Positions 8,893 to 25,124 of a stretch of DNA of 64,000 nt are shown piece after piece (position 1 is the first letter of the stretch; every line of letters begins with the position of its first letter). The position numbers and the translations under genes were made by a program. Source of the DNA: an uncultured Acidobacteriota bacterium (lineage in GTDB: Bacteria > Acidobacteriota > UBA6911); NCBI GenBank assembly GCA_963843575.1, contig CAWJKZ010000018.1:97195-161194 (forward strand), written 5' to 3'. Below the pieces are notes generated by a model. The model saw nothing but the letters and a program-made list of their open reading frames with translations. It did not search any database and was not told the origin of the DNA.

Positions 8893-9141
8893 GTTCTCTC
8901 CGGTTCGTGATCGAGGAACGGCCCTGGTGGAGGTGGAACCCGCAGTGCGGATTGGACCTCCACCCGGTGATCGACCGCAGCGGCCAGCCGTGCAGGCGGT
9001 CAACGGACGCCAGCTCGACTGGGTTGAACGTGCGGTCACCGCCGGCACGTTGGCGGGGGATCGAGTTGACCACCCCGGTGCAGCGTGAAGGTAATTTACC
9101 GGTGCGGGCGCAGTCAATTCGCGGGAATACTCATTTCAGGC

Positions 9142-9157
9142 TGCGTAGATTTACCCA
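9142..9157 (-). promoter_or_regulatory. Putative NarL-family operator TGGGTA-N4-TACGCA
   Basis: Imperfect palindrome matching the sites at 9718 and 13454; upstream of the protease gene. Confidence 0.45.
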
Positions 9158-9202
9158 ATTGCCCGTGGCGACAGCTGCGCGGCCTGCAAGGGCACTTCGG
9201 CG

Positions 9203-9658
9203 TCAGTGGCTGGAACTGTTCGGCGGACAGTTGCCGCGGGGGCCGGCGGCTGGACTGCGGAAATACTTCGACACGTAATTGCGGCCGGCCAGCACGTCGG
9301 AGATGGCGGGGAGAAGCTCGAGGTCGATGACGTCCTTGAGGACGTAACCCTCGGCGCCGGCCGAAATCGCCTCCTGGAGATATTCCCGTTCCTTGTGTAT
9401 CGACAGGATCAGGATCTTCACTTCCGGGTGCTGCGCTTTTATCCTGCGCGCAACCTCCATCCCGTGGACTTTCGGCATGGTGATGTCGAGGATCACCAGG
9501 TCCGGACTCGCGCGGTCGTCTTCCATCATCTGAAGCAGCGCCAGCCCATCGGCGACTTCCCCGACCACGTCGAGGTCCTGTTCCGCGGCGACCAGCTTTC
9601 TAACGTACTCCCGGATCATCGGGTGGTCGTCGGCCAGTACCAGACGGAGCGCGCACAT
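9203..9658 (-). CDS. NarL-type receiver domain lacking the LuxR HTH
   Basis: LADDHPMIR...LDITMP...AGAEGYVLK; ends after the receiver domain; similar to the regulators at 9916 and 24477. Confidence 0.85.
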   Translation of the reverse strand: MCALRLVLADDHPMIREYVRKLVAAEQDLDVVGEVADGLALLQMMEDDRASPDLVILDITMPKVHGMEVARRIKAQHPEVKILILSIHKEREYLQEAISAGAEGYVLKDVIDLELLPAISDVLAGRNYVSKYFRSPAAGPRGNCPPNSSSH

Positions 9659-9717
9659 GGGGTCATTATCGGGCGAAGGGGTGGCGGAGGGAAGTTGTGA
9701 AAGTACCCAATTAGCAA

Positions 9718-9733
9718 TGGGTATTAATACTCA
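9718..9733 (+). promoter_or_regulatory. Putative NarL-family operator TGGGTA-TTAA-TACTCA
   Basis: AT-rich near-palindrome ~60 bp upstream of the 9658 start; extra TACCCA half-site at 9704-9709. Confidence 0.5.
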
Positions 9734-9753
9734 CTGCTCGGGTGGGCCGCTTG

Positions 9754-9909
9754 TGGAGTGCGGCGGCTCGACGCCGCTTTGGTGGCGGCGCCTTGGCGCC
9801 ACCAAAGGCCGAGGTCGCAGTCGCATCTCGCAATTCGGGCGTGGCGCCGAGGCGCCGAGCATTCCTGCCGTAGGACGAGTGGAAAGCGGCGCCGAGGCGC
9901 CGCACTCCA
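9754..9909. repeat. REP-like doublet, family B (TGGAGTGCGGC...GCCGCTTT and its reverse complement)
   Basis: Inverted copies at 9754-9780 and 9883-9909 with inner palindromes; single copy at 51183-51210. Confidence 0.8.
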
Positions 9910-9915
9910 GATTCG

Positions 9916-10563
9916 TCAGATGAAGCCCTTCTTGATGGCGTACTTGACAAGGTCGGCGGTCTTGTTGACCTGCAGCTTCGCCATGGCGTTGGCGCGGTGT
10001 CGCTCGACGGTCCTGGAGCTGATGAAGAGGATTTTCCCGATCTCTTTGCTGGATTTCCCCTCCGCGATGAGTTTGAGCACCTCCCGCTCGCGCAGGGAAA
10101 GGGGTTCGGTGGTGAGGGCGGGGCGCTTGCCGCGGCGCATCTGGGCCCAGTCGTTGCGCGACTCGTCCGCAAGGAACCGGGATATGTAGATCTTGCCCTC
10201 CAGAATCATATCGATGGCCAGGAAGAGGTCTCTTTCGGCGTCTTCCTTCAAGAGATACCCGTCGGCCCCGGCCGAGATTGCCTCGTTCAGGTAGTCCTGG
10301 TCCTTGTGCATGGTCAGGATGAGGATCTTGGCGGCCGGGCGCATCCGCTTGATTTCGGGGATGGCCTCGATGCCGCGCAGGTGCGGCATCGAGATGTCCA
10401 GCAGCACCAGATCCGGGTCGGCGGTGCGCAGCAATTCGAGCAGTTCGGGGCCGTTGCCCGCCTCGCCCGCGATCTCGAGGTCTGACCGTTCGGAGAGGAT
10501 CTTTTGCAGTCCCTGCCGCAGCAGCAGGTGGTCGTCGGCGAGCACGATCCGGTGTCTGGTCAT
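9916..10563 (-). CDS. NarL/NreC-family response regulator (REC + LuxR HTH)
   Basis: LADDH, LDISMP, LSLREREVLKLIAEGKSSKEIG...RTVERHR. Confidence 0.95.
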   Translation of the reverse strand: MTRHRIVLADDHLLLRQGLQKILSERSDLEIAGEAGNGPELLELLRTADPDLVLLDISMPHLRGIEAIPEIKRMRPAAKILILTMHKDQDYLNEAISAGADGYLLKEDAERDLFLAIDMILEGKIYISRFLADESRNDWAQMRRGKRPALTTEPLSLREREVLKLIAEGKSSKEIGKILFISSRTVERHRANAMAKLQVNKTADLVKYAIKKGFI

Positions 10564-13568: not shown

Positions 13569-14162
13569 ATGGTTCCGTCCAGATCGACGATCCGGTTGCT
13601 CAAAGCCTTCGTCGTCGTCGCGGCCGTGACGGCCGTGTGCGCCGTTGTTGGCCTGCGCGACCGCACCCGCCCTGCTCCCCACGGTGAGAGCGCCGCCGCG
13701 ACCCCAGCCGCCGCCGCCGCCCCTGGCGTCGAGACGCCGGATCACGAGCTGAAGGTCCTGGAGGCCGCCGCGCGCAAGAAGCCCGGGCACGCGCCGGTTC
13801 TGTTCAGGCTGGCCACCCTGGCCGAGGCGGCGGGCCGCGCGGAGGATGCACGGAAATACCTGGAGCAGATCCTGCGGGGGGAGCCGCAAAACCTGGAGGC
13901 CAGGCTCGAACTCGGGAAGGTGATGTTCGGGGCGGGCGACGTCGCCGCGGCCCTGACGCAAACCAACCTTGTCCTGAAGAGCCACCCCGATCACCCGGAC
14001 GCGCTCTACAACCTCGGCGCGATCTACGGCAACCTGGGCGACGAGCGCCTGGCCCGGGAGAACTGGATGCGGCTTCTTGCGACCAGCCCCTCGAGCGAAA
14101 GCGGCAGGCGCGCACGGCAGGCCCTCGACCGGCTGGGGGGTGGTCCCGGGGACCGCCCATGA
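13569..14162 (+). CDS. Membrane-anchored TPR protein (possible cytochrome maturation or assembly accessory)
   Basis: N-terminal hydrophobic segment, then TPR motifs (P.NLEARLELG, PDHPDALYNLG); ATGA overlap with next gene. Confidence 0.8.
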   Translation: MVPSRSTIRLLKAFVVVAAVTAVCAVVGLRDRTRPAPHGESAAATPAAAAAPGVETPDHELKVLEAAARKKPGHAPVLFRLATLAEAAGRAEDARKYLEQILRGEPQNLEARLELGKVMFGAGDVAAALTQTNLVLKSHPDHPDALYNLGAIYGNLGDERLARENWMRLLATSPSSESGRRARQALDRLGGGPGDRP

Positions 14163-16093
14163 TGCGCCCGGTCGCGTGGACTGCGGTCGTGGGACTGCTG
14201 CTGTCCTGCGGCGCCCCCGTGTGGGCGCAGATCTCGCCGGGGCCGCTGTCGCAAGCCCACGCCTCTCTGAGCGGCCCGTCGCACTGCGTCGACTGCCACG
14301 ACGTGGCGAAGCATCCGCCGGAATACAAGTGCCTGGGATGCCACAACGAAATCCGGCAGCGCCTGGACGAACGCAGAGGACTGCATCCCTCCGAGGTTGG
14401 GCAGGACCGCACCGGCCGGAGCTGCGTCCGATGCCACTCCGACCACAACGGCCGCGATTTCAACCTCATTCACTGGGACACCGCGGTGGAGAGATTCGAT
14501 CACCATCGTGCCGCGTATGCGCTCGAGGGCAGGCACGCCGGGCTCCCTTGCCGGGCCTGCCACAAACCCGAGCACATCGCCGACCCCGCCGCCCTCAAGA
14601 CCCGCGACCTGGCACGCACCTTCCTTGGCCTGTCGCGACAGTGCGCGTCGTGCCACACCGACGAACACCGGCGGCAGTTGCCCGGCGCGTGCGAGCGCTG
14701 CCACAATTTCAGGGGGTGGAAAGTCGATCTGAACTTCGACCATGCCAGCGCGAGATTCCAGCTCGACGGGGCGCACGCGCGTGTCGCGTGCGAACGCTGT
14801 CACCACAGGAGCCAGGACTCCAAGCCCTTTACCCTGTACCGCGGCCTCGACCACAGTCAGTGCTCCTCGTGTCACCGCGATCCGCACCGCGGCTCTTTCC
14901 GGGCCGAGTGCGCGTCCTGCCACTCCACCCGGAACTGGGCGCCGAACCAGGTCGCCTCGGCTTTCGATCACGCCAAGACCGTCTTTCCCCTCAAGGGGAA
15001 GCACGTCGGCCTCGCCTGCCGCTCGTGCCATTCCCAGCCTGACTTCAAGCAGCCCGTGGCCCACGGCCAGTGCGCCGATTGCCACAGGAAGGACCCGCAC
15101 GGCGGGCAGTTCGAGCGCCGGGCCGACCGCGGTTCCTGTTCCTCCTGCCACTCGGAGGAGGGATTCAAACCGGCGACCTTCTCTGTCCCCGACCACCAGC
15201 GGACGCGCTTTGCGCTTGAGGGCAAGCACCTTGACGTTGCCTGCGCGAAGTGCCACGTCCCGCGCGGGGCCGACACGGTCTATGCCATGGTTGAGCAGTC
15301 GTGCGCCTCGTGTCACAAGGACCCGCACGGTGGGCAGTTCCAGGGGCCGCCGCACCAGAACCGCTGCGAGCACTGTCACACGACCAGGGGCTTCCGGCCC
15401 TCGACCTTTACCCTCACGCAACACCGCCAGACCGGGTTTGCCCTGACCGGGAGCCACCAGGCCGTGGCGTGCGTCGAGTGCCACGCCGGCTCCGGCTCGA
15501 CGAGCGCGAGATACCGGTTTCAGGACACCGGATGCACCGCCTGCCACCGCGACCCTCACCAGGGGGAATTCGCGGCGCGCACCGCCGCATTGCGACCCGA
15601 TGGCAGACCGGCAGGGTGCGAGTCGTGCCACAACACCCTGACCTGGCGCGATCTGTCTAAGTTCGACCACGCCTCGACCCGTTTCGCGCTGCGGGGGATC
15701 CATCGTGGCCTGGCGTGCGAACAATGCCACAAGTCGACGACCTTCAAACCGGGCCTGAGCGGCGCCCTGTTCCGCTCGACGCCCCGCGAGTGCTCCGGGT
15801 GCCACGAGGACCCCCACGGAGGGCAGTTCAGCGGGAACAGCGACTGCGGCCGCTGCCACAACTTGGTGAAGTGGAAGCCGTCGCTCTTCGACCACGCAAA
15901 GGACTCCACCTACTCGCTGCAGGGGGCGCACCAACAGGTCCGCTGCGGGCTCTGCCACGTCAAGCAGAGCGCACCGTCAGGCCGCCCCATCCTGGTATAC
16001 CGTGGCACGCCCCGCACGTGCGGGGCGTGCCACGGACCCGGGTCCCCGCAGCTGACCGGCAGCCTGGAGACGGGAGGGTCGGCGACGCCATGA
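14159..16093 (+). CDS. Multiheme c-type cytochrome, 23 CXXCH motifs, exported
   Basis: Signal peptide; 23 CXXCH counted; repeating FDH..F.L.G.H / DPH.GQF triheme units. Confidence 0.95.
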   Translation: MMRPVAWTAVVGLLLSCGAPVWAQISPGPLSQAHASLSGPSHCVDCHDVAKHPPEYKCLGCHNEIRQRLDERRGLHPSEVGQDRTGRSCVRCHSDHNGRDFNLIHWDTAVERFDHHRAAYALEGRHAGLPCRACHKPEHIADPAALKTRDLARTFLGLSRQCASCHTDEHRRQLPGACERCHNFRGWKVDLNFDHASARFQLDGAHARVACERCHHRSQDSKPFTLYRGLDHSQCSSCHRDPHRGSFRAECASCHSTRNWAPNQVASAFDHAKTVFPLKGKHVGLACRSCHSQPDFKQPVAHGQCADCHRKDPHGGQFERRADRGSCSSCHSEEGFKPATFSVPDHQRTRFALEGKHLDVACAKCHVPRGADTVYAMVEQSCASCHKDPHGGQFQGPPHQNRCEHCHTTRGFRPSTFTLTQHRQTGFALTGSHQAVACVECHAGSGSTSARYRFQDTGCTACHRDPHQGEFAARTAALRPDGRPAGCESCHNTLTWRDLSKFDHASTRFALRGIHRGLACEQCHKSTTFKPGLSGALFRSTPRECSGCHEDPHGGQFSGNSDCGRCHNLVKWKPSLFDHAKDSTYSLQGAHQQVRCGLCHVKQSAPSGRPILVYRGTPRTCGACHGPGSPQLTGSLETGGSATP

Positions 16094-19000
16094 TCCATCG
16101 CGTCCAGACACAGTCACGCTGCCTGCCGCCGTGCACGGTCCCGGTCCTCCTCGGAGTGCTCGGGGTCCTGCTCTCCCTGGCGGCCACGGCTCCGGTGGCC
16201 GCCAGCCAGGAACAGGCGCGCGGACGCACGCGCAACCCGCACGGCCCCCTGCATATCGCCTGCGAGAACTGCCACACATCCACCAGCTGGAGCCCGATCC
16301 GGCCGTCACCCGATTTCTCGCACCGGGAGACGCGCTTCCCGCTGCGCGGGCTGCACACGAACGTCGCCTGCCGACTCTGCCACGTGCGGCTGGAGTTCAG
16401 CGACGTGGGAACACGGTGCGCCGACTGCCACGCCGACATCCACCGGCGCCAGTTCGGCGGCGACTGCGGGCAATGTCACACCGTCCGCGGCTGGAAGGTC
16501 ACCTCCCAGGCCATCAAAGGGCACCAGAACCGTTTCCCCTTGCTGGGAGCGCACGCCTCGACCGAGTGCCAGTCCTGCCACAAGAACGCGGCGGCCGGGC
16601 AGTTTTTGGGTCTCAGTACCGAATGCTCGTCCTGTCACCTGAAGGACTACCAGGCGGCGCGCAACCCCGATCACAAGGCGGCAAATCTCCCGGCGACCTG
16701 CGCCTCCTGCCACCGGTTCGATTCGTGGACCGGCGTGGCCTTCGATCATGCCCGATTCACCGGGTTCGCCCTCAGCGGCGCCCACACGCGGCTGTCCTGC
16801 GCTGAGTGCCACACCGGCGGCCGGTATACCGGAACCCCGGCGAACTGTTTCAGCTGCCACGCCCGGGAATACACCTCGACCGGCGACCCCAGCCACACTG
16901 CTGCCGGCTTCCCGACCGATTGTTCAAAGTGCCACACGACGCTGTCGTGGGCCGGCGCTTCCTTTGACCACAACACGACCCGGTTCGCTTTGACCGGGGC
17001 CCACTCCAAGATCGCCAGCTGCACGGCGTGCCATGTCTCCGGACGATTTGCCGGAACTCCATCGGACTGCTACAGCTGCCACATCCGGGACTACGAACGC
17101 ACCTCCAACCCCAATCACGGGAAGAGTTCCTTTTCCACCTCGTGCGCCACCTGCCATACGACCGCAGGCTGGGCCGGCGCAAAGTTCGACCACAGCCTCG
17201 CGCGCTTTGCGCTGACCGGCGCCCATCTGCAGGCTCCCTGCGCGTCCTGCCACAAGAACGGCCAATACACCGGCACCCCGGCCGATTGCGCAAGCTGTCA
17301 CCTTGCCGACTTCAACGGCACGAAAGACCCAAACCACGCGGCCGCGGGCTTCCCGCAGACGTGCGAGACCTGCCACACGACGACGCAGTGGAAGGGGGCG
17401 AAGTTCGACCACAACACCGGAACGAAGTTCCCGCTGACGGGGGCGCACGCGCGGGTGGACTGCGCGTCGTGCCACAAGAACGGCCAGTACAAGGGGACGT
17501 CGACGGATTGCGTCGGCTGCCACCTGGCCGATTTCAACGGCACGAAAGATCCGAACCACACGGCCGCGGGCTTCCCGCAGACGTGCGAGACCTGCCACAC
17601 GACGACGCAGTGGAAAGGGGCGAAGTTCGACCACAACACGGGAACGAAGTTCCCGCTGACGGGGGCGCACGCGCGGGTGGATTGCGCGTCCTGCCACAAA
17701 AACGGCCAGTACCGGGGAACGTCGACGGATTGCGTCGGCTGCCACCTGGCCGATTTCAACGGCACGAAAGATCCGAACCACACGGCCGCGGGCTTCCCGC
17801 AGACGTGCGAGACCTGCCACACGACGACGCAGTGGAAGGGGGCGAAGTTCGACCACAGCACGGGAACGAAGTTCCCGCTGACGGGGGCGCACGCGCGGGT
17901 GGATTGCGCGTCCTGCCACAAAAACGGCCAGTACCGGGGAACGTCGACGGATTGCGTCGGCTGCCACCTGGCCGATTTCAACGGCACGAAAGATCCGAAC
18001 CACACGGCCGCGGGTTTCCCGCAGACGTGCGAGACCTGCCACACGACGACGCAGTGGAAGGGGGCGAAGTTCGACCACAGCACGGGAACGAAGTTCCCGC
18101 TGACGGGGGCGCACGCCCGGGTGGATTGCGCGTCGTGCCACAAAAACGGCCAGTACCGCGGGCTCCCTGCGAGCTGCGTGTCGTGTCACAGGGCCGCATA
18201 CGACAGCACTACGAACCCGAACCACTCGGCAGCCGGTTTCCCGCAGGATTGCGCGGCGTGCCACGGCACCTCGCAGTGGAGTGGAGCCCGTTTCGACCAC
18301 AACGCCGCGACGAAGTTCCCGCTGACCGGCGCTCACGTGGCCGTGTCCTGCAAGGAGTGCCACGCGGGGGACCGTTTCGCGGGCACACCCGCGGACTGCT
18401 ACTCCTGCCACAGCGCCGCCTACACCGGAACGAAGAACCCGCCGCACGTGTCCTCGGGGTTCCCTCGGGACTGCACCCTGTGTCACTCCACCTCGGGCTG
18501 GCAGGGCGCCGTTTTCGACCACAGCCGGACGCGCTTCACGTTGACGGGTGCGCACACGACCGCCCAGTGCGTGCAATGCCACGTCAACAACGTGTTTGCA
18601 GGGACACCCACCCAGTGTGTCGCCTGCCATCTTTCGGAATACGGCAAAACCACGAACCCGAATCACGCGGCCGCGGGTTTCCCGCAAGACTGCTCACTGT
18701 GCCACGCGACTACAGGCTGGCAGGGCGCGAAGTTCGACCACACCGCCACCAAGTTCCCGTTGACCGGGGCGCACGTCGCCGCGAGCTGTGCTGCTTGTCA
18801 CTCCGGTGGCGTCTACGCCGGGCTGAACACCTCCTGCGTGTCGTGCCACCTGACGAATTTCAACAACACACGCAACCCGGACCATAAGGCCGGCGGTTTC
18901 CCCCAGCAGTGCGAAATCTGTCACGGCACGGCCGCCTGGACGCCTGCGTCCTTCGATCACGCCAGAACGGGGTTCCCGCTCACCGGGGCCCACACCTCGG

Positions 19001-19386
19001 TCCAGTGCGTCAACTGTCACGTCGGGGGGAGATACCAGGGAACCCCGACCGATTGCTACTCGTGCCACCAACTCGAATACCGGAGTGTCACCGACCCGAA
19101 CCACGCGGCGGCCGGTTTCCCGACCAACTGCACCCTCTGCCACACCACGGCCACCTGGAGCGGTGCGAAGTTCAACCACACCTTTCCGATCTATTCGGGG
19201 TCCCACGCGGGCAAGTGGAACACCTGCGGCGAGTGCCATCCGAACTCGAGCAACTACTCCGTCTTCTCGTGTACCAATTGCCACGAGCACGAAAAGACGA
19301 AAATGGACCAGGAACACCGGGATGTACGGAACTATGTTTACAACAGCGCCAACTGCTACTCGTGCCATCCGAACGGGCGGCATTAG
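16090..19386 (+). CDS. Giant multiheme c-type cytochrome, 43 CXXCH motifs, ~1098 aa, exported
   Basis: Start ATG 16090 (ATGA overlap), signal peptide, 43 CXXCH counted, ~74-aa triheme repeats. Confidence 0.95.
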   Translation: MIHRVQTQSRCLPPCTVPVLLGVLGVLLSLAATAPVAASQEQARGRTRNPHGPLHIACENCHTSTSWSPIRPSPDFSHRETRFPLRGLHTNVACRLCHVRLEFSDVGTRCADCHADIHRRQFGGDCGQCHTVRGWKVTSQAIKGHQNRFPLLGAHASTECQSCHKNAAAGQFLGLSTECSSCHLKDYQAARNPDHKAANLPATCASCHRFDSWTGVAFDHARFTGFALSGAHTRLSCAECHTGGRYTGTPANCFSCHAREYTSTGDPSHTAAGFPTDCSKCHTTLSWAGASFDHNTTRFALTGAHSKIASCTACHVSGRFAGTPSDCYSCHIRDYERTSNPNHGKSSFSTSCATCHTTAGWAGAKFDHSLARFALTGAHLQAPCASCHKNGQYTGTPADCASCHLADFNGTKDPNHAAAGFPQTCETCHTTTQWKGAKFDHNTGTKFPLTGAHARVDCASCHKNGQYKGTSTDCVGCHLADFNGTKDPNHTAAGFPQTCETCHTTTQWKGAKFDHNTGTKFPLTGAHARVDCASCHKNGQYRGTSTDCVGCHLADFNGTKDPNHTAAGFPQTCETCHTTTQWKGAKFDHSTGTKFPLTGAHARVDCASCHKNGQYRGTSTDCVGCHLADFNGTKDPNHTAAGFPQTCETCHTTTQWKGAKFDHSTGTKFPLTGAHARVDCASCHKNGQYRGLPASCVSCHRAAYDSTTNPNHSAAGFPQDCAACHGTSQWSGARFDHNAATKFPLTGAHVAVSCKECHAGDRFAGTPADCYSCHSAAYTGTKNPPHVSSGFPRDCTLCHSTSGWQGAVFDHSRTRFTLTGAHTTAQCVQCHVNNVFAGTPTQCVACHLSEYGKTTNPNHAAAGFPQDCSLCHATTGWQGAKFDHTATKFPLTGAHVAASCAACHSGGVYAGLNTSCVSCHLTNFNNTRNPDHKAGGFPQQCEICHGTAAWTPASFDHARTGFPLTGAHTSVQCVNCHVGGRYQGTPTDCYSCHQLEYRSVTDPNHAAAGFPTNCTLCHTTATWSGAKFNHTFPIYSGSHAGKWNTCGECHPNSSNYSVFSCTNCHEHEKTKMDQEHRDVRNYVYNSANCYSCHPNGRH
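17239..18160 (+). repeat. Intragenic tandem repeat, 222-bp unit, about 4 near-identical copies
   Basis: TGCGCGTC(C/G)TGCCACAA recurs at 17239, 17461, 17683, 17905 and 18127. Confidence 0.95.
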
Positions 19387-21037
19387 CGTCGCGGGCCTCT
19401 GGTGGCTGGCCTGGCTTGTGTGTTGCGGCAACGCGGTCGCGCAGACGGGCGACCCGGGGGTGAGGGACCGCTTCCGCGTCAAATACGTCGCCGAGGGGGC
19501 CGTCTATCTCGAAGGCGGACGCTCCGCCGGGTTGGCCGAAGGCCAGCGCCTGACGCTGCGGCGCGGCGAAAACAGCGGCGCCGAGGCCGTCGCCGAACTG
19601 CGGGTTTTTTCCGTGGCATCGGCGTCGGCCGTGTGCGAGGTGGTGTCGTCGGACGGGCCGGTCGAGCCGGGCGATGTCGCCTACCTGTCCACCGAGGACG
19701 TGCAACGCCTGCGGTTGCTCAAGGATAGCCGGGAATCCAGGAAGTACCCGCAGGTAATCTCGTTCACGGAAGGAGATCCGCTCGACGAGGAGGCCAGGGA
19801 AAGCGTGCCGCGCCCTCCACTGCCGGAGATCAACCGCGCGCGCGGGAGGTTCGGGTTCGAATACAGCTCCATCCGGGACCGCGAGGCACAAGGCACCGGT
19901 TCGAGCCAGCTCGGCGGCGTGGTGCGCGCCGACATGACGCGCGTGGGCGGTACCCACTGGAACTTCAGCGGCTATTACCGCGGCCGCTTCACCTCGCGCA
20001 GCCGTGCGCAGCAGGAGACCCTGACCGATCTGATCAACCGCACCTACCATCTCAGCCTTTCCTACAACAACCCCGGCTCGAATTGGGTGGCCGGTTTCGG
20101 GCGCCTGTATCTCCCGTGGGCGAGCAGCCTCAACACGATCGACGGCGGCTATGTCGGACGCCGTCGCGGCAAACACACCGTCTTCGGCCTGTTCGGCGGA
20201 TCCACCCCCGACCCCACCACCTGGAACTACACTCCCGGCCGCCAGATCGCCGGCAGCTTCGTCAACTTCGAAGCCGGCCACTTCGAGTCTTTCCGTTACA
20301 CGAGCACGTCGGGCGTCGCGCTCGCCAGGGTCCACTGGCACCCCGACCGCCAATTCGGTTTTTTCGAAAACGGGTTCTTCTACAAGGGTCTCTTTTCGCT
20401 CTATCACAACCTGGAAGCTGACCTGCTGCGCGGTGCGCCCGAGGCGCCGGCCAGCGGGCTGGTGGCCAGCCGGAGCTACCTTACGATTCGGGTGCAGCCC
20501 AACCGGTTTGTGGTCTTCGACCTGAATCACAACTACTTCCGGAACATCCCCACCTTCGACGAGCGGCTGGTCGGGACCGGTCTGCTGGACAAGCTCCTGT
20601 TCCAGGGCGTGAGCGGCGGCGTCCGGTTGGAGCTCCCGTATTCCATCAGCCCGTACTTCAGCCTCGGCCGCAGCGACCGGACGGGGGACGCCCGGACGGC
20701 CTGGAACCGGATGTTCGGTGTCGTAGTGCGCCGCGTCTGGAAGACGGGTTTGCGCGCCGATGCGAGATATTCCAGCTTCGACAGCTCCTTCGGCCGTGGC
20801 ACGTACCGCTCGCTGTCGTTGTCGCGGGAGTTGGGCGAGCGGTTCCGCTTCGACGTGCAGGCCGGCGATCAGGATCTGGTGTCGGCGATGACCCGGGACA
20901 ACCGCGCCCGTTGGCTCAACGCGGACGCCGATTGGTTCCTCGGCCCGCACTATTTCCTCGGGGCGGGCGTTACGTTTTATCGCGGGCGGGCGCAGAGTTA
21001 CGACCAGTGGTTCCTGAACCTGGGCTACCGGTTTTGA
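19334..21037 (+). CDS. Outer-membrane beta-barrel (porin-like) with small N-terminal beta domain
   Basis: Signal peptide ending AVA-Q, many alternating amphipathic strands, C-terminal beta-signal WFLNLGYRF; start ATG 19334 (or 19322) overlaps the cytochrome 3' end. Confidence 0.85.
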   Translation: MFTTAPTATRAIRTGGISVAGLWWLAWLVCCGNAVAQTGDPGVRDRFRVKYVAEGAVYLEGGRSAGLAEGQRLTLRRGENSGAEAVAELRVFSVASASAVCEVVSSDGPVEPGDVAYLSTEDVQRLRLLKDSRESRKYPQVISFTEGDPLDEEARESVPRPPLPEINRARGRFGFEYSSIRDREAQGTGSSQLGGVVRADMTRVGGTHWNFSGYYRGRFTSRSRAQQETLTDLINRTYHLSLSYNNPGSNWVAGFGRLYLPWASSLNTIDGGYVGRRRGKHTVFGLFGGSTPDPTTWNYTPGRQIAGSFVNFEAGHFESFRYTSTSGVALARVHWHPDRQFGFFENGFFYKGLFSLYHNLEADLLRGAPEAPASGLVASRSYLTIRVQPNRFVVFDLNHNYFRNIPTFDERLVGTGLLDKLLFQGVSGGVRLELPYSISPYFSLGRSDRTGDARTAWNRMFGVVVRRVWKTGLRADARYSSFDSSFGRGTYRSLSLSRELGERFRFDVQAGDQDLVSAMTRDNRARWLNADADWFLGPHYFLGAGVTFYRGRAQSYDQWFLNLGYRF

Positions 21038-21072
21038 CTGCGGAAAGCCGGACGCGGTATTTCGCCAGGCCG

Positions 21073-21102
21073 ATCCGTGTGGATCCGCGCAAATCCGCGT
21101 CC
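21073..21102 (+). repeat. Short ATCCGYG x3 repeat (10-bp period), REP-like
   Basis: atccgtgtgg atccgcgcaa atccgcgtcc in the intergenic gap. Confidence 0.5.
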
Positions 21103-21153
21103 TGAAAAATAGGTCAGCGTATTTGTGAACATCAGTACTAAGGCAGGAGACGC

Positions 21154-21951
21154 ATGAGAAGCGGAACTTTCGCGTTGTGGCTGTTCATCCTCGGCACGAG
21201 CCCCGTCGCCGGTGCGAAGAAACCTGCGCCCCCGGTAGGATCGCTCCCGATCGCGGATCTCATAGACAGGGTCGGAGAGAACGTCGAGGCTTTCGGGACG
21301 AGGTTTTCCGAGGTCAGCTGCACCGAATCGGTCGTACAGGCGAAGCTCGACAAGGCGGGGAAGGTGCTCTACCACCAGGAATCGGCTTTCGATTACCTGA
21401 TCCTGATGAATCTCCAGGGCGAGGAGCCGTCGCTCGAAGAATCCCGCGTGGTTCAAAAACAGGCCAAGGCGGCGGCAAACCTGCCACTGCTTCTCACCAG
21501 CGGGTTCCCGACGCTGCAGCTCGTCTTCCACCCCTACTACCAGGCCGGCTTCACCTATGAGCGACTGCCTGACGACCCGGCGGACGGCAAGGTTTTTGTG
21601 CGCATCCGGTTCCGCCACATCAAGGGAGCGCGCTCGACCTCAGCCCTGAGGCTGCGCGGCAGGGACTTCCCGCTCGACCTGGAAGGGACGGCGTGGGTGG
21701 ATCCCGACTCGGCTGCCATCGCGCGCATCACGGCGGGCCTGGAGTTCCCCGCCGAGGACCTGGGGTTGCAGTCCCTCCAGACCGACGTGCGTTACGCGGA
21801 CACGCGCTTCCCCGGCATCGAGACCACCTACTCGCTCCCGGTCGTGGCGACCGTGGAGGTGGAAACGCCGCGGCAGCGGTGGCGCAACACGCACCGGTTC
21901 TCCGCCTACCGGCTCTTCTCGGTGCGCTCCGAGAGCACGGTGTCCAAATGA
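21154..21951 (+). CDS. Exported hypothetical protein (beta-rich)
   Basis: AGGAG RBS, signal peptide ending VAG-A, ATGA overlap with next gene. Confidence 0.8.
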   Translation: MRSGTFALWLFILGTSPVAGAKKPAPPVGSLPIADLIDRVGENVEAFGTRFSEVSCTESVVQAKLDKAGKVLYHQESAFDYLILMNLQGEEPSLEESRVVQKQAKAAANLPLLLTSGFPTLQLVFHPYYQAGFTYERLPDDPADGKVFVRIRFRHIKGARSTSALRLRGRDFPLDLEGTAWVDPDSAAIARITAGLEFPAEDLGLQSLQTDVRYADTRFPGIETTYSLPVVATVEVETPRQRWRNTHRFSAYRLFSVRSESTVSK

Positions 21952-22880
21952 GCAAAAGCCTGACGGAACTGGTTGTAGGCTCCGCCGCCGCCGTCGAGCT
22001 CCCGCGCGAGCGGGGGCATCGGGCGGCGATCCTGCTTCTCGCGCTCGCGGCCGCGGCGCTGATGGTCGCGCTGACGCTGTACGGCTTCGACTACTACTGG
22101 CTGGATCAGGTGAGCCGGCCCCATTCTCCCAAGCACGCCCAGCTGAGGCCCGGAGGCGTCGTCGGGATCAGGCTGGGCATCCTGGGGATAGTGCTTTTAT
22201 TCTTGATCTATCTTTACCCGATCCGGAAACGCTGGGCCTGGCTGGGTAGCAAGGGGAGCACCAAGCACTGGTTCGACTATCACATCCTCCTCGGGCTCGT
22301 CGCCCCGGTGGTCGTCAGCTTCCATGCGTCCTTCAAGGCCCAGGGGCTGGCGGGGTTGGCCTACTGGACGATGGCCGTCCTGACGGCGAGCGGCATCGTG
22401 GGGCGGTACCTCTACGCGCAGATTCCCAGAAGCCGCGCCGCCGCCGAGAGCTCGCTGAAGCAGCTCGAGGCCTCCAGCACCCAGCGCGGCCGGATGGTGG
22501 AGGCCTCGGCCGGGTTTGCCCAGGTGGTGCGGCTGCCGGATATCAGGGAGGTGCAGGCGATGTCGTCGGTGCGGGCGCTCTGGCTGATGCTCGCCTGGGA
22601 CCTCCAACAGCCGCTGCTCCTGTGGAGGGTGAGACGACGCCTCTCCCCTGGACGCGGGCTGCTGACTTTGGGCGGGGTGCTGTCGACAGGCGACGCCGCC
22701 CTCGAGCAGGCTATCCGCGAGACCCGGCGCCAGGTGGTCATGACCAGGAAAATCCTCCTCCTGTCCAAGGCGGAGAAGATCTTTCACCTCTGGCACGTCC
22801 TGCACCGGCCCTTCAGCATATCGCTCGCCATCCTGGTGCTGCTCCACTTGGCCATCGTGTTTCTGTTCGGTTACTACTGA
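21948..22880 (+). CDS. Inner-membrane diheme-b protein, ferric-reductase-like transmembrane family
   Basis: Several TM helices; two His pairs at i/i+14 (DYH-x13-H and VLH-x13-H); SGIVGRYLY motif. Confidence 0.8.
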   Translation: MSKSLTELVVGSAAAVELPRERGHRAAILLLALAAAALMVALTLYGFDYYWLDQVSRPHSPKHAQLRPGGVVGIRLGILGIVLLFLIYLYPIRKRWAWLGSKGSTKHWFDYHILLGLVAPVVVSFHASFKAQGLAGLAYWTMAVLTASGIVGRYLYAQIPRSRAAAESSLKQLEASSTQRGRMVEASAGFAQVVRLPDIREVQAMSSVRALWLMLAWDLQQPLLLWRVRRRLSPGRGLLTLGGVLSTGDAALEQAIRETRRQVVMTRKILLLSKAEKIFHLWHVLHRPFSISLAILVLLHLAIVFLFGYY

Positions 22881-22908
22881 CATCCGAGAGGCGAAGGCGT
22901 CCCTGGCA

Positions 22909-24291
22909 ATGATCGACGAACTCTTCATATACGCCATCCTGGCCCTTGTCCTCGTTGTTCCCGCGGTCGTCTATTTCAGCCGCATGCGGAGGCGCGAGGC
23001 CCGGGCGCTAGCCGCCCTCGAAAAGGGGAAGCTCTTCTCGGAGCGCCCGCCCGTACAACACCCCAGCATCGACCTTGCGCGCTGCATCGGTTGCGGCACC
23101 TGCGTCAGCGCCTGCCCCGAGGGGGACGTGCTGGCGATCGTGGCCGGACGGGCAGCCATCGTCAACGGCCACAAGTGCATCGGCCACGCCCTCTGCGCCG
23201 AAGCGTGCCCCGTGGGCGCCATCACGATGACCATGGGGGATCCCAGCGTCGGCGCCGACATCCCGCACCTCAGCGCGGAATACGAGACCAACATACCCGG
23301 CATGTTCGTCGTCGGCGAACTCGGTGGCCTGGCGCTGATCAGGAATGCGGTCAACCAGGGCCGGGAGTGCATCGACACGATCGTCCGCAGGCTGGCCGCG
23401 GACCGCGCTGCTGCGGGGGAAGACGATCCCTACGACGTCTGCGTCGTGGGCGCCGGGCCGGCGGGCATCAGCGCCTCGCTGCGCGCCATCGAGAAGAAAC
23501 TGAGCTACATCACTCTGGAACAGGACGAGATCGGCGGCACAGTCGCCAAGTACCCGCGCCAGAAACTCGTCATGACCAGCCCCGTGGAGTTCCCGATGTA
23601 CGGCCGCTTCCGCAAGCTCGAGATCTCCAAGGAGAACCTGATGGAATTCTGGCAGACGGTCTTCCGGCGCGCGGATTTCAAAGTGCTCACGGGCGAAAAG
23701 GTCGAGCACATCACACGGGAACCGGATGCCACCTTCCGGGTCCGCGGCGTGAAAGGGGAATACCGCGCGCGCACCGTCATCCTGGCGCTCGGCAGGAGGG
23801 GAACGCCGCGCAAGCTGGGCATCCTGGGGGAGGGCTTGCCCAAGGTCATGTACAGCCTCATCGAGGCGGAATCCTACACCGATAAGAAAATCCTCGTGGT
23901 CGGGGGCGGTGACAGTGCCGTGGAGGCCGCCATGGGGCTCGCGCATCAGCCGGGCAACACCGTCACCCTCTCCTACCGCAAGGACGCCTTTGCCCGCATC
24001 AAAGAACGCAACAGCCGGAAAATCGAGGAGTTTATCCGCGCCGGAAAAATCCGGGTCCTGTTCAACTCCAATCCCGTCGAGATCCGGGAAGGCTCCGTCC
24101 TGCTCGACGTTCAGGGGACGCCGCTGGAAATGCCCAACGACTTCGTCTGGGTTTTCGCCGGCGGTACCCCGCCCAGGGATTTCCTGCAGAAAGTCGGCGT
24201 CGTGCTCGGCCGCGAAGACTTCACCCGCGAAACGCACGACGAGGCGCAGCGCGCCCGGAGCGAGTCCTCCCAGCCGATCCTGCCGAGCTAA
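22909..24291 (+). CDS. Membrane-anchored dicluster ferredoxin fused to thioredoxin-reductase-like FAD/NAD(P)H oxidoreductase
   Basis: N-terminal TM; CIGCGTCVSACP and CIGHALCAEACP; VGAGPAG (FAD); VGGGDSA and YRK (NADPH). Confidence 0.9.
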   Translation: MIDELFIYAILALVLVVPAVVYFSRMRRREARALAALEKGKLFSERPPVQHPSIDLARCIGCGTCVSACPEGDVLAIVAGRAAIVNGHKCIGHALCAEACPVGAITMTMGDPSVGADIPHLSAEYETNIPGMFVVGELGGLALIRNAVNQGRECIDTIVRRLAADRAAAGEDDPYDVCVVGAGPAGISASLRAIEKKLSYITLEQDEIGGTVAKYPRQKLVMTSPVEFPMYGRFRKLEISKENLMEFWQTVFRRADFKVLTGEKVEHITREPDATFRVRGVKGEYRARTVILALGRRGTPRKLGILGEGLPKVMYSLIEAESYTDKKILVVGGGDSAVEAAMGLAHQPGNTVTLSYRKDAFARIKERNSRKIEEFIRAGKIRVLFNSNPVEIREGSVLLDVQGTPLEMPNDFVWVFAGGTPPRDFLQKVGVVLGREDFTRETHDEAQRARSESSQPILPS

Positions 24292-24476: not shown

Positions 24477-25124
24477 ATGACGAAATGCCGCTTGATTCTC
24501 GCCGACGATCACCTCCTGGTGAGGCAGGGATTGAGGAGGATACTCGCCCAGCGCCCGGACCTGGAGGTGGTGGGGGAAGTGGGGGACGGGCTGGCGTTGC
24601 TTGGGGCGCTGTCGAGGCTGGCTCCGGACCTCGTGCTCCTCGATCTGTCGATGCCCAACCTGCGGGGGATCGAAGCGATTCCGGAGCTCAAGAGAAGCAG
24701 GCCGAATATGAAAGTGCTGGTGCTCACGATGCACCGGGACCCGGAGTACCTCTATCAAGCTATCGCCGCCGGGGCGGACGGCTATTTGTTGAAGGAGGAC
24801 GCCGACAGCGACCTCTTCTCCGCCATCGATACGGTCGTGGGCAACCGGGTCTACGTCTCCAAGTTCCTCTCGGAGCAGTCGCGCCGCGACTGGGCGGCGC
24901 TTCGCCGGGGCGGCGACCCCGGCACGGGCGCAGATGCGCTGTCGGTGCGTGAGCGCGAGGTGTTGAAGCTGATCGCGGAGGGGAAATCGAGCAGGGAGAT
25001 CGGCACGCTGCTGCACATAAGCGGGCGCACGGTCGAGCGGCACCGAGCCAACATGATGGACAGGCTGAACGTCCGAAGCACGGTCGAGTTGGTGAAGTAC
25101 GCCGTGAGCAAGGGGTACGTCTGA
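24477..25124 (+). CDS. NarL/NreC-family response regulator
   Basis: REC + LuxR HTH; 215 aa, colinear with 9916..10563. Confidence 0.95.
   Translation: MTKCRLILADDHLLVRQGLRRILAQRPDLEVVGEVGDGLALLGALSRLAPDLVLLDLSMPNLRGIEAIPELKRSRPNMKVLVLTMHRDPEYLYQAIAAGADGYLLKEDADSDLFSAIDTVVGNRVYVSKFLSEQSRRDWAALRRGGDPGTGADALSVREREVLKLIAEGKSSREIGTLLHISGRTVERHRANMMDRLNVRSTVELVKYAVSKGYV

What the first reader, a model, noticed from the sequence alone, without database searches (positions are those of the whole stretch)
13569..24291. Candidate complete NAD(P)H-to-cell-surface electron conduit with 66 c-hemes
Seen: seven co-oriented genes, mostly with overlapping stop/start codons, encode a TPR protein, 23-heme and 43-heme exported cytochromes, a beta-barrel, an exported protein, a diheme-b type membrane protein and a membrane-anchored ferredoxin-flavoprotein. 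Known: porin-cytochrome conduits (MtrAB, Geobacter Pcc) normally exchange electrons with the quinone pool through CymA/ImcH-type proteins, while NOX and MsrQ/Fre use a flavin dehydrogenase plus a diheme-b domain to cross the membrane. Inference: this locus joins a split NOX-like module to a porin-cytochrome wire, giving a possibly quinone-independent path from NAD(P)H via FAD, Fe-S, b-hemes and c-hemes to the outside (or the reverse). It may be related to the proposed PCC3 clusters, but I know of no characterised system with this architecture and could not check.
Basis: partly seen in the sequence, partly recalled or inferred. Interest (0 to 1): 0.92.

Follow-up and report, generated by a model that had tools for sequence, protein, structure and literature searches.

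The report
Flavoprotein-fed PCC3 multiheme electron conduit

Summary
Seven co-oriented genes at 13569-24291 encode a TPR protein, 23-heme and 43-heme exported cytochromes c, a ~22-strand outer-membrane barrel, an exported protein, a five-helix membrane protein (g6) and a membrane-anchored ferredoxin-flavoprotein (g7).

By its motifs the cluster is a PCC3 porin-cytochrome cluster (He et al. 2017). g6 carries both WX3HX13H motifs and the SGXXG motif that define the PCC3 inner-membrane protein.

The PCC3 passages I read do not mention the flavoprotein, yet it is a near-constant partner:
- It lies next to g6 in 75 of 80 Acidobacteriota loci.
- It lies inside the cluster in 45 of 80 metagenome loci of a distant g6 clade (GC 31-74%), in several gene orders. 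The other 35 end at a contig edge.
- It is present in the same cluster on a Bacteroidota plasmid.
- Some lineages fuse an Fe-S domain to the g6 domain, and a heptaheme cytochrome to a g7-like flavoprotein.

The best reading is a split, NOX-like NAD(P)H dehydrogenase feeding a trans-envelope heme wire, probably outward and without quinones. The cofactors, the donor, the direction and quinone independence are all inferred. Nothing has been tested biochemically.

Earlier notes of this scan reached the same reading in other genomes.

The parts
13569..14162 (+). g1: membrane-anchored TPR protein (197 aa; earlier in-frame starts from 13485 are possible)
   Evidence: TPR families, PF14559 E 1.6e-15; below-threshold hit to the CcmH/CycH TPR domain PF23914 (25.3 bits against a cut-off of 42). 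Homologues found upstream in L002, L003 and L004, but at E<=1e-8 in only 5 of 80 loci. It is the least firmly attached member of the cluster.
14159..16093 (+). g2: exported 23-heme cytochrome c (644 aa), the likely periplasm-spanning wire
   Evidence: 23 CxxCH; Cytochrome_C7 E 5e-30. 42 of 45 complete orthologues have exactly 23 CxxCH, as does the Emticicia homologue at 36% identity.
16090..19386 (+). g3: exported 43-heme cytochrome c (1098 aa), the likely extracellular wire built of triheme modules
   Evidence: 43 CxxCH; Cytochrome_C7 E 2.6e-48, 12 stretches. Orthologues carry 13-76 hemes, and 38 of 43 fit 22+3n.
17239..18158 (+). Tandem 222-bp repeat inside g3 (74 aa and three hemes per unit; 4.1 copies, 95% matches)
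   Evidence: Tandem Repeats Finder, score 1616.
19334..21037 (+). g4: outer-membrane beta-barrel (567 aa; start uncertain, 19322 or 19334)
   Evidence: AlphaFold2 model, pLDDT 77.7: beta domain at 46-118 and about 22 strands at 169-566. Foldseek matches FimD/PapC ushers and porins at E 1e-9 to 1e-5, TM about 0.3. C-terminal ...LGYRF. Homologue present in 75 of 80 loci.
21154..21951 (+). g5: exported 265-aa protein of unknown family (lead only: LolA/RseB-like)
   Evidence: Signal peptide; no Pfam or NCBIfam hit. Homologue in 71 of 80 Acidobacteriota loci; not detected in the Emticicia or metagenome clusters. Atlas neighbours are unnamed Acidobacteriota clusters, one auto-named 'outer membrane lipoprotein-sorting'.
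21948..22880 (+). g6: five-helix inner-membrane protein (310 aa), the PCC3 'IMP', a predicted diheme b cytochrome
   Evidence: W108-x3-H112-x13-H126, S148-G-x-x-G152 and W282-x3-H286-x13-H300. In 71 family representatives H112, H126, H300, G149, G152 and W282 are invariant, and H286 is conserved in at least 90%. AlphaFold2 pLDDT 87.8.
22909..24291 (+). g7: membrane-anchored ferredoxin-flavoprotein (460 aa), the predicted NAD(P)H-binding entry subunit
   Evidence: Hydrophobic helix at residues 5-23 followed by a run of R/K. Motifs CxxCxxCxxxCP and CxGHxxCxxxCP. Pyr_redox_3 E 2.8e-41. Nearest solved relatives are YpdA/Bdr, thioredoxin reductases and TrxR-type ferredoxin-NADP reductases. No CxxC in the flavin domain.
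9916..13244 (-). Divergent hybrid histidine kinase (10560-13244) and LuxR-type response regulator (9916-10563): possible local regulators, not conserved with the cluster
   Evidence: Pfam. No homologues beside the cluster in most of the 80 loci.
24477..25124 (+). Co-oriented LuxR-type response regulator 186 nt after g7: local context only
   Evidence: REC + GerE. Homologues at E<=1e-10 in only 3 of 80 loci, none adjacent to g7.

Best explanation
The operon encodes a PCC3-type conduit across the cell envelope, with its own cytoplasmic entry point.

Proposed path:
1. g7 sits on the cytoplasmic face of the inner membrane, held by one N-terminal helix. It takes a hydride from NAD(P)H onto FAD.
2. 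g7 passes single electrons through its two Fe-S clusters. One cluster has an invariant His in place of the second Cys.
3. g6 receives them. It is a five-helix diheme b protein whose two HX13H pairs place one heme near each membrane face.
4. From the outer heme the electrons enter the 23-heme periplasmic cytochrome g2, then the 22-strand barrel g4 and the 43-heme modular cytochrome g3 at the cell surface. They end on an insoluble or polymeric acceptor such as Fe(III) or humic matter.
5. g1 (TPR) and g5 are probably assembly or scaffold factors.

This route bypasses the quinone pool. It moves negative charge outward without pumping protons, so it would dispose of reducing equivalents (regenerate NAD(P)+) rather than conserve energy.

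Shown here: the gene content, the motifs, the predicted folds, the synteny and the fusions. Inferred: every cofactor, the donor, the direction of flow, the contacts between proteins and the independence from quinones.
For: Motifs and folds
- The cluster meets the published motif definition of PCC3: a porin, a ~21-heme cytochrome, a many-heme repetitive cytochrome, and a ~300-aa IMP with five helices, SGXXG and two WX3HX13H (passages of PMC5566968; sequence).
- g7 has an NAD(P)-type second Rossmann motif and lacks the CxxC of disulfide reductases. Its nearest solved relatives are NADPH enzymes.
- Among 71 g6 relatives, weak Pfam hits fall on DUF4405 (23), Ferric_reduct (14) and Ni_hydr_CYTB (7).

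Synteny
- A g7 homologue lies directly after g6 in 75 of 80 Acidobacteriota loci. Of the 5 without, 3 end within 0.5 kb after g6, and 2 (L031, L054) have room but no g7.
- In 80 metagenome loci found with a distant g6 clade (GC 0.31-0.74), the flavoprotein is in the cluster in 45. None clearly lacks it, and 35 end at a contig edge. The gene orders differ: IMP-Flav-MHC-MHC-barrel; IMP-MHC-MHC-barrel-Flav; Flav-IMP-...; IMP-MHC-Flav-MHC.
- Emticicia oligotrophica plasmid pEMTOL02 (Bacteroidota) carries, in order, ccsA, IMP (29% identity), flavoprotein (41%, same anchor and same His motif), a 23-heme cytochrome (36%), a 40-heme cytochrome (43%) and a barrel (23%).
- In G025 the cluster is split, and g2 and g7 stay together at a second locus.

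Fusions, in four other Acidobacteriota genomes (five loci)
- 815-870-aa proteins join two cNMP-binding domains and an Fe-S dicluster to a C-terminal g6 domain.
- The next gene is FHA-helix-heptaheme. In three of the five loci it continues as helix-ferredoxin-flavoprotein, 31-35% identical to g7 over residues 34-437. This also fixes g7's out-to-in anchor topology.

Other cytoplasmic partners
- A distant g6 relative in G045 is instead preceded by NuoE/F-like and NuoG-like genes and followed by a decaheme cytochrome.
- In Sphingobium pMSHV a flavoprotein-cNMP-FeS protein precedes an IMP and a 10-heme cytochrome.

Complex prediction (g6 + g7): weak support. Score 0.33, best of 3 controls 0.00. The mark was reached by 116 of 157 solved complexes and 2 of 215 mismatched pairs, but at 0.60 or under by only 18 of those 157 and by both mismatches that passed. 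The runs agree in at least 71% of contacts, and the partner's pLDDT is at least 70.
Against: - There is no biochemical or expression evidence of any kind.
- g6 itself gives no Pfam hit at E<=0.01. Its structural matches to diheme proteins (Z 7.7-10.3) lie within the range that helical bundles reach by chance. Foldseek found nothing.
- The complex prediction is only weak support.
- Two Acidobacteriota loci (L031, L054) have g6 and no g7 within 10 kb.
- The published model places the IMP at the quinone pool, and I could not exclude a quinone site in g6.
- The Gallionellaceae papers describe PCC3 as four genes without a flavoprotein. I could not inspect those genomes.
- Fusions of the g6 family to cNMP-binding, FHA and Ser/Thr kinase domains could point to sensing rather than bulk electron flow.
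- Exporting electrons from NAD(P)H without proton pumping costs membrane potential, and 66 hemes is a large investment for a non-conserving route.
- Whether a cytochrome fits inside a 22-strand barrel was not resolved.
Confidence: 0.55

Rival explanations
1. The published PCC3 model. g6 is a quinone-active cytochrome b that links the cytochrome wire to the quinone pool, in either direction. g7 is an accessory enzyme (maintenance, priming or regulation of the hemes or Fe-S clusters) and not the main entry point.
For: He et al. 2017 proposed this by analogy with cytochrome b of the bc1 complex and of hydrogenase (passages). 7 of 71 relatives give weak hits to the quinone-reactive Ni_hydr_CYTB family. 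FdnI and HyaC appear among the structural matches at Z 8.3 and 7.7. Two loci lack g7 near g6.
Against: It does not explain several findings: the flavoprotein stays in the cluster through at least four gene orders and across phyla; Fe-S domains are fused to the g6 domain and the flavoprotein to a cytochrome; and a NuoEFG-like module replaces the flavoprotein in another lineage. No quinone-site motif was identified.
Confidence: 0.2
2. The same hardware runs inward. Electrons from an extracellular donor (reduced humics, Fe(II), a cathode or a partner cell) pass through the c-hemes and b-hemes to g7 and reduce NAD(P)+.
For: PCC3 was first found in iron oxidisers and proposed as an uptake route. 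The inner-membrane gene of one PCC3 copy rose with iron oxidation in Sideroxydans CL21 (passages). TrxR-type ferredoxin-NADP reductases are reversible (established knowledge).
Against: Moving electrons inward against the membrane potential onto NAD(P)+ (about -320 mV) needs a very low-potential donor; Fe(II) or humics would not do (inference from standard potentials). In Sideroxydans ES-1 both PCC3 clusters were down-regulated on Fe(II) (passages). The carriers seen here are Terriglobia and an aerobic heterotroph, not known lithoautotrophs.
Confidence: 0.13
3. The system is not a bulk respiratory conduit. It could be a regulated redox device, such as a sensor of extracellular redox state, an assimilatory ferric reductase like eukaryotic FRE/STEAP, or a detoxifying reductase.
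For: Members of the g6 family are fused or adjacent to cNMP-binding, FHA and Ser/Thr kinase domains. NADPH-flavin-diheme transmembrane enzymes in eukaryotes serve iron uptake and signalling (established knowledge). The cluster occurs in an aerobic heterotroph, on a plasmid.
Against: The window's own g6 and g7 carry no signalling domains. A sensor or an uptake reductase would not need 66 hemes, a dedicated barrel and an extracellular cytochrome whose length varies from 13 to 76 hemes.
Confidence: 0.1

Closest known systems
PCC3 porin-cytochrome c gene clusters (He, Barco, Emerson and Roden 2017, PMC5566968; Gallionellaceae pangenome, PMC9900912). Predicted from genomes, never characterised.
   Same: A porin gene beside two very large repetitive multiheme cytochromes (published medians 21 and 34 hemes; here 23 and 43), and a ~300-aa five-helix inner-membrane protein with SGXXG and two WX3HX13H motifs.
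   Different: PCC3 is described as four genes with the IMP exchanging electrons with quinones, and the passages I read mention no flavoprotein. Here a ferredoxin-flavoprotein is a near-constant fifth component, and g5 and a TPR protein are added. Published hosts are Alpha-, Beta- and Gammaproteobacteria; here they are Acidobacteriota and Bacteroidota. The barrel is predicted with about 22 strands, against up to 42 predicted transmembrane regions in the paper. Direct sequence homology to the named PCC3 proteins was not tested.
MHC + IMP + 'other redox protein' clusters without a porin (He et al. 2017, Supplementary Table 6) and PCC4
   Same: The same IMP motif class sits beside a cytochrome and an unnamed redox protein of 412-805 aa. 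The Sphingobium, G041 and G264-type loci I examined have this layout, and there the redox protein is a Pyr_redox_3 flavoprotein with Fe-S and cNMP-binding domains.
   Different: Those clusters have 7-10-heme cytochromes and usually no barrel. The table gives gene IDs and lengths for the redox protein, without its nature, and no NAD(P)H link was drawn in what I read.
MtrCAB (Shewanella) and OmaB-OmbB-OmcB (Geobacter) porin-cytochrome complexes
   Same: The logic of a periplasmic multiheme cytochrome, an outer-membrane barrel and a surface multiheme cytochrome.
   Different: No family membership. The DmsE/MtrA model TIGR03508 scores 34.6 bits against a cut-off of 192.2, and the barrel hits no model. 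Those systems are fed from quinol by CymA, ImcH or CbcL (established knowledge).
NOX / FRE / STEAP and MsrQ-Fre (ferric reductase domain superfamily)
   Same: NAD(P)H, then flavin, then two stacked b-hemes held by His pairs on two parallel helices, then an acceptor on the far side of the membrane. 14 of 71 g6 relatives give weak Ferric_reduct hits. STEAP4 and STEAP1 match at Z 8.7.
   Different: The dehydrogenase is a separate TrxR-like protein with two Fe-S clusters, not an FNR-fold domain. g6 has five helices and itself misses PF01794. The acceptor is a multiheme cytochrome.
Tmc and Hmc transmembrane complexes of Desulfovibrio
   Same: A periplasmic multiheme cytochrome, a membrane cytochrome b and a cytoplasmic Fe-S protein form a quinone-independent path across the membrane (established knowledge).
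   Different: The HmcA model NF045713 scores 66.8 bits against a cut-off of 400. There is no HdrD-like subunit. Those systems carry electrons inward, towards sulfate reduction.
Flavin-based extracellular electron transfer of Listeria (Ndh2-EetAB-PplA)
   Same: By function only: a dedicated NADH-oxidising route to extracellular acceptors that regenerates NAD+ rather than building a proton gradient (recalled, not checked here).
   Different: It uses a quinone and flavinylated lipoproteins in a Gram-positive envelope, and the proteins are unrelated.

Membership tests
PCC3 gene cluster (He et al. 2017) | Outer-membrane beta-barrel gene adjacent to multiheme cytochrome genes | tested here: met
   g4 model with about 22 strands and Foldseek matches to outer-membrane barrels. 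It lies directly after g3.
PCC3 gene cluster (He et al. 2017) | Two very large, repetitive, heme-dense cytochromes c (about 21 and about 34 hemes; low residue-to-heme ratio) | tested here: met
   23 and 43 CxxCH, or 28 and 25.5 residues per heme. 222-bp tandem repeat.
PCC3 gene cluster (He et al. 2017) | IMP of about 300 aa with five membrane helices, SGXXG on helix 4 and WX3HX13H on helices 3 and 5 | tested here: met
   310 aa. All three motifs are present, and they are conserved across 71 representatives. The model shows five membrane helices.
PCC3 gene cluster (He et al. 2017) | Sequence homology to the named PCC3 proteins (for example Slit_0867-0870) | not tested
The one genome-contig scan returned Acidobacteriota only.
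MtrCAB | MtrA/DmsE decaheme family and MtrB barrel family | tested here: not met
   TIGR03508 scores 34.6 bits against a cut-off of 192.2 for g2. g4 has no NCBIfam or Pfam hit.
Ferric reductase domain superfamily (NOX/FRE/STEAP/MsrQ, PF01794) | Match to the Ferric_reduct transmembrane model | tested here: inconclusive
   g6 gives no hit at E<=0.01. 14 of 71 relatives hit weakly, best E 1.5e-4. STEAP matches at Z 8.7 lie within helical-bundle background.
Ferric reductase domain superfamily (NOX/FRE/STEAP/MsrQ, PF01794) | Two His pairs on two parallel helices, spaced to bind two stacked b-hemes | tested here: met
   H112/H126 and H286/H300, 13 residues apart, on helices 3 and 5. By the positive-inside rule both helices run from inside to outside. 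Heme binding itself was not tested.
Diheme cytochrome b superfamily (DUF4405, Ni_hydr_CYTB and relatives; that they share a Pfam clan is recalled) | Profile similarity to member families | tested here: inconclusive
   DUF4405 hit by 23 of 71 relatives (best E 5.7e-6) and Ni_hydr_CYTB by 7 of 71, all weak. g6 itself hits none.
Thioredoxin reductase / YpdA (Bdr) disulfide reductases | Equivalog-level match and a redox-active cysteine or CxxC | tested here: not met
   TIGR04018 scores 165.9 bits against a cut-off of 339.9, and TIGR01292 scores 83.1 against 343.45. No CxxC occurs outside the Fe-S and N-terminal Zn-ribbon-like motifs among the 72 orthologues scanned.
TrxR-type ferredoxin-NADP+ reductase fused to a ferredoxin | Two-Rossmann TrxR fold without a disulfide, with an Fe-S partner domain | tested here: inconclusive
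   Pyr_redox_3/2 plus a Fer4 dicluster. FNRs 3ab1, 5ygq and 3lzw are among the solved relatives at E 6e-14 to 2e-10. Activity was not tested.
Hmc/Tmc complexes | HmcA-type 16-heme cytochrome | tested here: not met
   NF045713 scores 66.8 bits (g3) and 20 bits (g2) against a cut-off of 400.

The most novel reading that the evidence does not exclude
PCC3-type wires in at least two named phyla (Acidobacteriota and Bacteroidota), and in metagenome lineages with GC from 31 to 74%, are not quinone-linked respiratory modules. They are two-membrane 'NOX wires': a split NAD(P)H dehydrogenase (TrxR-like flavoprotein plus His-ligated Fe-S cluster), a diheme b protein and up to about 100 c-hemes carry cytoplasmic reducing power straight to solids outside the cell. 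This would give common, mostly aerobic or fermentative soil and peat bacteria a way to dump electrons that does not conserve energy. The length of the extracellular wire would be tuned by gain and loss of three-heme modules.
Probability: 0.45. Interest if true: 0.85.

Novelty: new variant of a known kind. Interest (0 to 1): 0.72.

Why it matters
How electrons leave the inner membrane is the least understood step of extracellular electron transfer outside Shewanella and Geobacter. PCC3 has stood as an untested prediction since 2017.

A conserved, cytoplasm-facing NAD(P)H-type flavoprotein partner changes the working model. The entry point becomes pyridine nucleotides, not quinones. The energetics become disposal of electrons, not energy conservation.

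It also makes the system testable with two small proteins (g6 and g7), and with a cultured carrier, Emticicia oligotrophica, which holds the cluster on a plasmid.

The cluster is common in Terriglobia. 335 relatives of g6 were found in one scan of species genomes, and 67 of 301 sampled Acidobacteriota genomes carry a g6-family gene. The answer therefore bears on iron and humic reduction and on carbon turnover in soils and peat.

Tried and rejected
- Foldseek of the g6 model against the PDB: no match at E<=0.001.
- Profile search of the g6 family against PDB sequences: only chance rows, E>2.
- The search for related loci with the wide g6 alignments A1 and A2 failed because no stretch was conserved enough. 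A narrower alignment, A3, worked, but it returned Acidobacteriota only. As a result I could not inspect Proteobacterial PCC3 clusters.
- tblastn of g7 against plasmids also hit a Pseudoalteromonas NAD(P)-binding protein among glycosyltransferase genes. It is unrelated to this system.
- RNA runs: no RNA holder was listed for 14300-24290.
- The downstream response regulator (24477-25124) and the upstream kinase/regulator pair are not conserved with the cluster. I dropped them as parts of the system.
- The 2026 peat preprint on Acidobacteriota EET clusters (10.64898/2026.05.27.727921; sections 9 and 12 and term passages read) describes clusters with 8-13-heme cytochromes. It does not contain the terms NAD, inner membrane, cytochrome b or PCC. 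It does not appear to cover this system, though its figures and supplements were not visible.
- Literature searches for a link between PCC3 and a flavoprotein or NAD(P)H found none in the full-text library. One search was too broad to be informative.
- The supplementary tables of He et al. are held only in part: Tables 3-5 are a few hundred characters each. A listing of neighbouring genes could have escaped me.
- Membership in MtrCAB and in Hmc was considered and rejected on scores below the cut-offs.

Full report
**1. What is there**

The + strand from 13569 to 24291 carries seven genes in one orientation. All have GC3 of 0.79-0.86, typical of real genes in this 65% GC genome.

- g1 (13569-14162): 197 aa, a hydrophobic N-terminal anchor and TPR repeats.
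- g2 (14159-16093): 644 aa, a signal peptide and 23 CxxCH.
- g3 (16090-19386): 1098 aa, a signal peptide and 43 CxxCH. Both cytochromes match Cytochrome_C7 many times over.
- g4 (about 19334-21037): 567 aa, no family hit. It ends in ...LGYRF. With 61 orthologues as alignment it folds (pLDDT 77.7) into a small N-terminal beta domain and about 22 barrel strands. Foldseek finds outer-membrane ushers and porins at E about 1e-9, with TM-scores near 0.3.
- g5 (21154-21951): 265 aa, exported, no family. The language-model atlas gives only unnamed Acidobacteriota clusters and a weak LolA/RseB-like lead.
- g6 (21948-22880): 310 aa, five predicted membrane helices (pLDDT 87.8).
- g7 (22909-24291): 460 aa. 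An N-terminal membrane helix, a two-cluster ferredoxin domain and a Pyr_redox_3 flavoprotein domain.

Three junctions are 4-base ATGA overlaps. The other junctions are a possible overlap and gaps of 116 and 28 nt.

**2. Which known kind it belongs to**

He et al. 2017 (PMC5566968; abstract, PCC3, PCC4 and IMP passages, and Supplementary Table 6 read) defined 'PCC3' from genomes. [quoted passage not shown] The IMP has five helices, SGXXG on helix 4 and WX3HX13H on helices 3 and 5.

g6 has W108-x3-H112-x13-H126, S148-G-x-x-G152 and W282-x3-H286-x13-H300. A full HMMER search found 2336 cluster representatives at E<=0.001. In an alignment of 71 full-length representatives, H112, H126, H300, G149, G152 and W282 are invariant, and H286 is kept in at least 90%.

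By its motifs the locus is therefore a PCC3 cluster. Direct homology to the named Proteobacterial proteins could not be tested. Later papers (passages only: PMC9900912, 10.1101/2025.02.27.639646, PMC8788666) still describe PCC3 as four genes and functionally untested. In Sideroxydans ES-1 both copies fell on Fe(II).

**3. The flavoprotein is a constant partner**

- Within the window's own family, a g6 homologue was found in 6 of 36 genomes. In three of them (L001, L003, L004) g2-g7 follow in the same order. Two further loci are cut by contig ends but hold g3-g7.
- One scan of species genomes found 335 relatives of g6. The best 80 loci are titled Acidobacteriota/Terriglobia MAGs, except one labelled Chlamydiota. 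A g7 homologue follows g6 in 75 of these 80. Three of the other five end within 0.5 kb after g6. L031 and L054 have room and no g7.
- In G025, where g6 has no g7 beside it, g7 (64% identity) lies on another contig directly after the 23-heme gene, which is also missing from the main locus.
- Four loci hold only a 23-heme cytochrome, g6 and g7, with no barrel. This points to a three-part core.
- tblastn against plasmids found the whole system on pEMTOL02 of Emticicia oligotrophica (Bacteroidota). The order there is ccsA, IMP (29% identity, both motifs), flavoprotein (41%), a 23-heme cytochrome (36%), a 40-heme cytochrome (43%), a barrel (23%) and a GW-domain protein.
- A metagenome scan seeded with a distant g6 clade (27-32% identity to g6) returned 80 loci with GC from 0.31 to 0.74. 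The flavoprotein is in the cluster in 45. None with enough flanking sequence lacks it, and 35 end too soon. The gene orders differ. Linkage kept through rearrangement argues for function and against mere inheritance.

**4. Fusions and alternative partners**

A profile search of 301 Acidobacteriota genomes found the g6 family in 67. Many of the weaker matches lay in open frames of 800 aa or more.

In five loci from four genomes these frames encode two cNMP-binding domains, an Fe-S dicluster domain and a C-terminal g6 domain with both His motifs. The next gene encodes an FHA domain, a membrane helix and seven c-hemes. In three of the five loci it continues through a second helix into a ferredoxin-flavoprotein that is 31-35% identical to g7 over residues 34-437. 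These fusions tie all four modules together. They also show that the helix before the g7-type domain runs from outside to inside, so the Fe-S and flavin domains are cytoplasmic.

Other lineages show the same theme:
- In Sphingobium pMSHV a flavoprotein-cNMP-FeS protein precedes an IMP and a 10-heme cytochrome. This matches the unnamed 'other redox protein' of He et al.'s Supplementary Table 6.
- In G045 the IMP is preceded by NuoE/F-like and NuoG-like genes. This is a second, unrelated NADH-type module in the same position.
- One representative fuses a multiheme cytochrome directly to the IMP.
- In G084 a Ser/Thr kinase is fused to the IMP, next to a 33-heme cytochrome.

**5. Anatomy of the two entry proteins**

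g7:
- The first Fe-S motif is CxxCxxCxxxCP. The second is CxGHxxCxxxCP, with His in place of the second Cys.
- This His is present in 70 of the 72 orthologues scanned (the other two lack the Fe-S region in the called frame) and in Emticicia.
- No CxxC lies in the flavin domain, so g7 is not a disulfide reductase.
- The second nucleotide motif (GGGDSA) and Y356, R357 and R363 are invariant. That such residues suggest NADPH is recalled, not tested.
- The nearest solved relatives are YpdA/Bdr (E about 1e-26), thioredoxin reductases and TrxR-type ferredoxin-NADP reductases.
- A subgroup (about 45% identity, 7 of the 72 scanned, plus L001) lacks the helix and has two extra N-terminal CxxC pairs.

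g6:
- By the positive-inside rule the N-terminus and the long helical insert (about residues 158-272) are cytoplasmic.
- Helices 3 and 5 both run from inside to outside. This would place one heme (H112/H286) near the cytoplasm and one (H126/H300) near the periplasm. This is inference.
- g6 itself has no Pfam hit, but 23, 14 and 7 of 71 relatives give weak hits to DUF4405, Ferric_reduct and Ni_hydr_CYTB.
- The wide structural search lists a designed diheme bundle (Z 10.3), E. coli superoxide oxidase CybB (9.8), cytochromes b561 (8.7), STEAP4 and STEAP1 (8.7), FdnI (8.3) and HyaC (7.7). All lie within the range that helical bundles reach by chance.

The g6 + g7 complex prediction gave weak support. 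Score 0.33, best of 3 controls 0.00. The mark was reached by 116 of 157 solved complexes and 2 of 215 mismatched pairs, but at 0.60 or under by only 18 of those 157 and by both mismatches that passed. The runs agree in at least 71% of contacts, and the partner's pLDDT is at least 70.

**6. The wire**

- 42 of 45 complete g2 orthologues have exactly 23 CxxCH, as does the Emticicia protein. A fixed length fits a periplasm-spanning element.
- g3 orthologues range from 13 to 76 hemes, and 38 of 43 fit 22+3n.
- In the window a 222-bp unit (74 aa, three hemes) is repeated 4.1 times at 95% identity. The outer wire therefore changes length by whole triheme modules, and has done so recently.
- Which cytochrome sits in the barrel, and whether 22 strands suffice, remain open.

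**7. Mechanism and rivals**

I favour (0.55) the path NAD(P)H, FAD, two Fe-S clusters, two b-hemes, 23 c-hemes, barrel, 43 c-hemes, extracellular acceptor. Outward flow follows the membrane potential and pumps no protons. It would therefore regenerate NAD(P)+ at a cost in proton-motive force, as in fermentative electron disposal. This is inference.

The rivals are:
- the published quinone-linked model, with g7 as an accessory (0.2);
- inward flow to NAD(P)+, which is thermodynamically hard except with very low-potential donors (0.13);
- a regulated sensing, assimilatory or detoxifying device, suggested by the cNMP, FHA and kinase fusions (0.1).

**8. Novelty**

The cluster type has been in print since 2017. 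The flavoprotein partner and the NAD(P)H reading were not found in the full-text searches or in the passages read. Figures, most supplements and subscription journals were not visible.

After my own analysis I looked up this scan's notes. Eight earlier reports on other genomes reach the same reading. They are unchecked AI notes, not independent evidence, but they show that the pattern recurs.

I rate the finding a new variant of a known kind, with interest 0.72.

Noticed in passing
window 17239-18158 (inside g3); L009-L088: The outer cytochrome grows and shrinks by whole three-heme, 74-aa modules. The window holds 4.1 tandem copies at 95% identity. Orthologues carry 13-76 hemes, and 38 of 43 fit 22+3n, while the partner cytochrome stays at 23 hemes in 42 of 45.
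   Followed up: yes
g7 residues 90-101 (window about 23176-23211); 70 of the 72 orthologues scanned; L089: The second Fe-S motif has His in place of the second Cys (CxGHxxCxxxCP), from Acidobacteriota to Bacteroidota. It may form a Cys3His-ligated cluster, which could be the exit towards the b-heme.
   Followed up: partly
L002 (G025:C2) and L179 (G025:C5): In one relative the cluster is split between two contigs: TPR, outer cytochrome, barrel, g5 and IMP on one, and the 23-heme cytochrome with the flavoprotein on the other.
   Followed up: yes
L172-L176 (G264, G187, G208, G204); L177 (G084): The g6 domain occurs fused to cNMP-binding plus Fe-S domains, and once to a Ser/Thr kinase. The neighbouring cytochromes start with an FHA domain. 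This suggests that some of these conduits are regulated by nucleotides or phosphorylation.
   Followed up: partly
L015, L019, L022, L023, L062, L081, L087, L001: A g7 subgroup (about 45% identity) lacks the membrane helix and has two extra N-terminal CxxC pairs, like a zinc ribbon. One g6 representative (P0065) carries an N-terminal zinc-ribbon hit.
   Followed up: no
L033, L036, L046, L052, L060, L073, L080, L084: These g7 orthologues are about 610 aa long, with a C-terminal extension of about 150 aa of unknown nature.
   Followed up: no
L089 8668-11754; L150, L157: A cytochrome c biogenesis gene (ccsA, system II) lies directly upstream of the cluster in Emticicia and in two metagenome loci. 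In 7 metagenome loci a TPR gene lies between the IMP and the flavoprotein. This fits an assembly role for g1.
   Followed up: partly
window 1000-13244 and 29754-34475: An unusual density of signalling genes: four large PAS/GAF histidine kinases (one with a MEDS domain, 3956-7738), three response regulators and a REC-PAS-GGDEF-EAL protein (29754-31856).
   Followed up: no
window 58000-64000: GC falls from about 0.65 to 0.555. The stretch holds a DnaB-type replicative helicase (58812-60200) and a DUF885 protein (62139-63911).
   Followed up: no
window 28850-29488 (-): A 212-aa leucine-rich-repeat protein, uncommon in bacteria.
   Followed up: no
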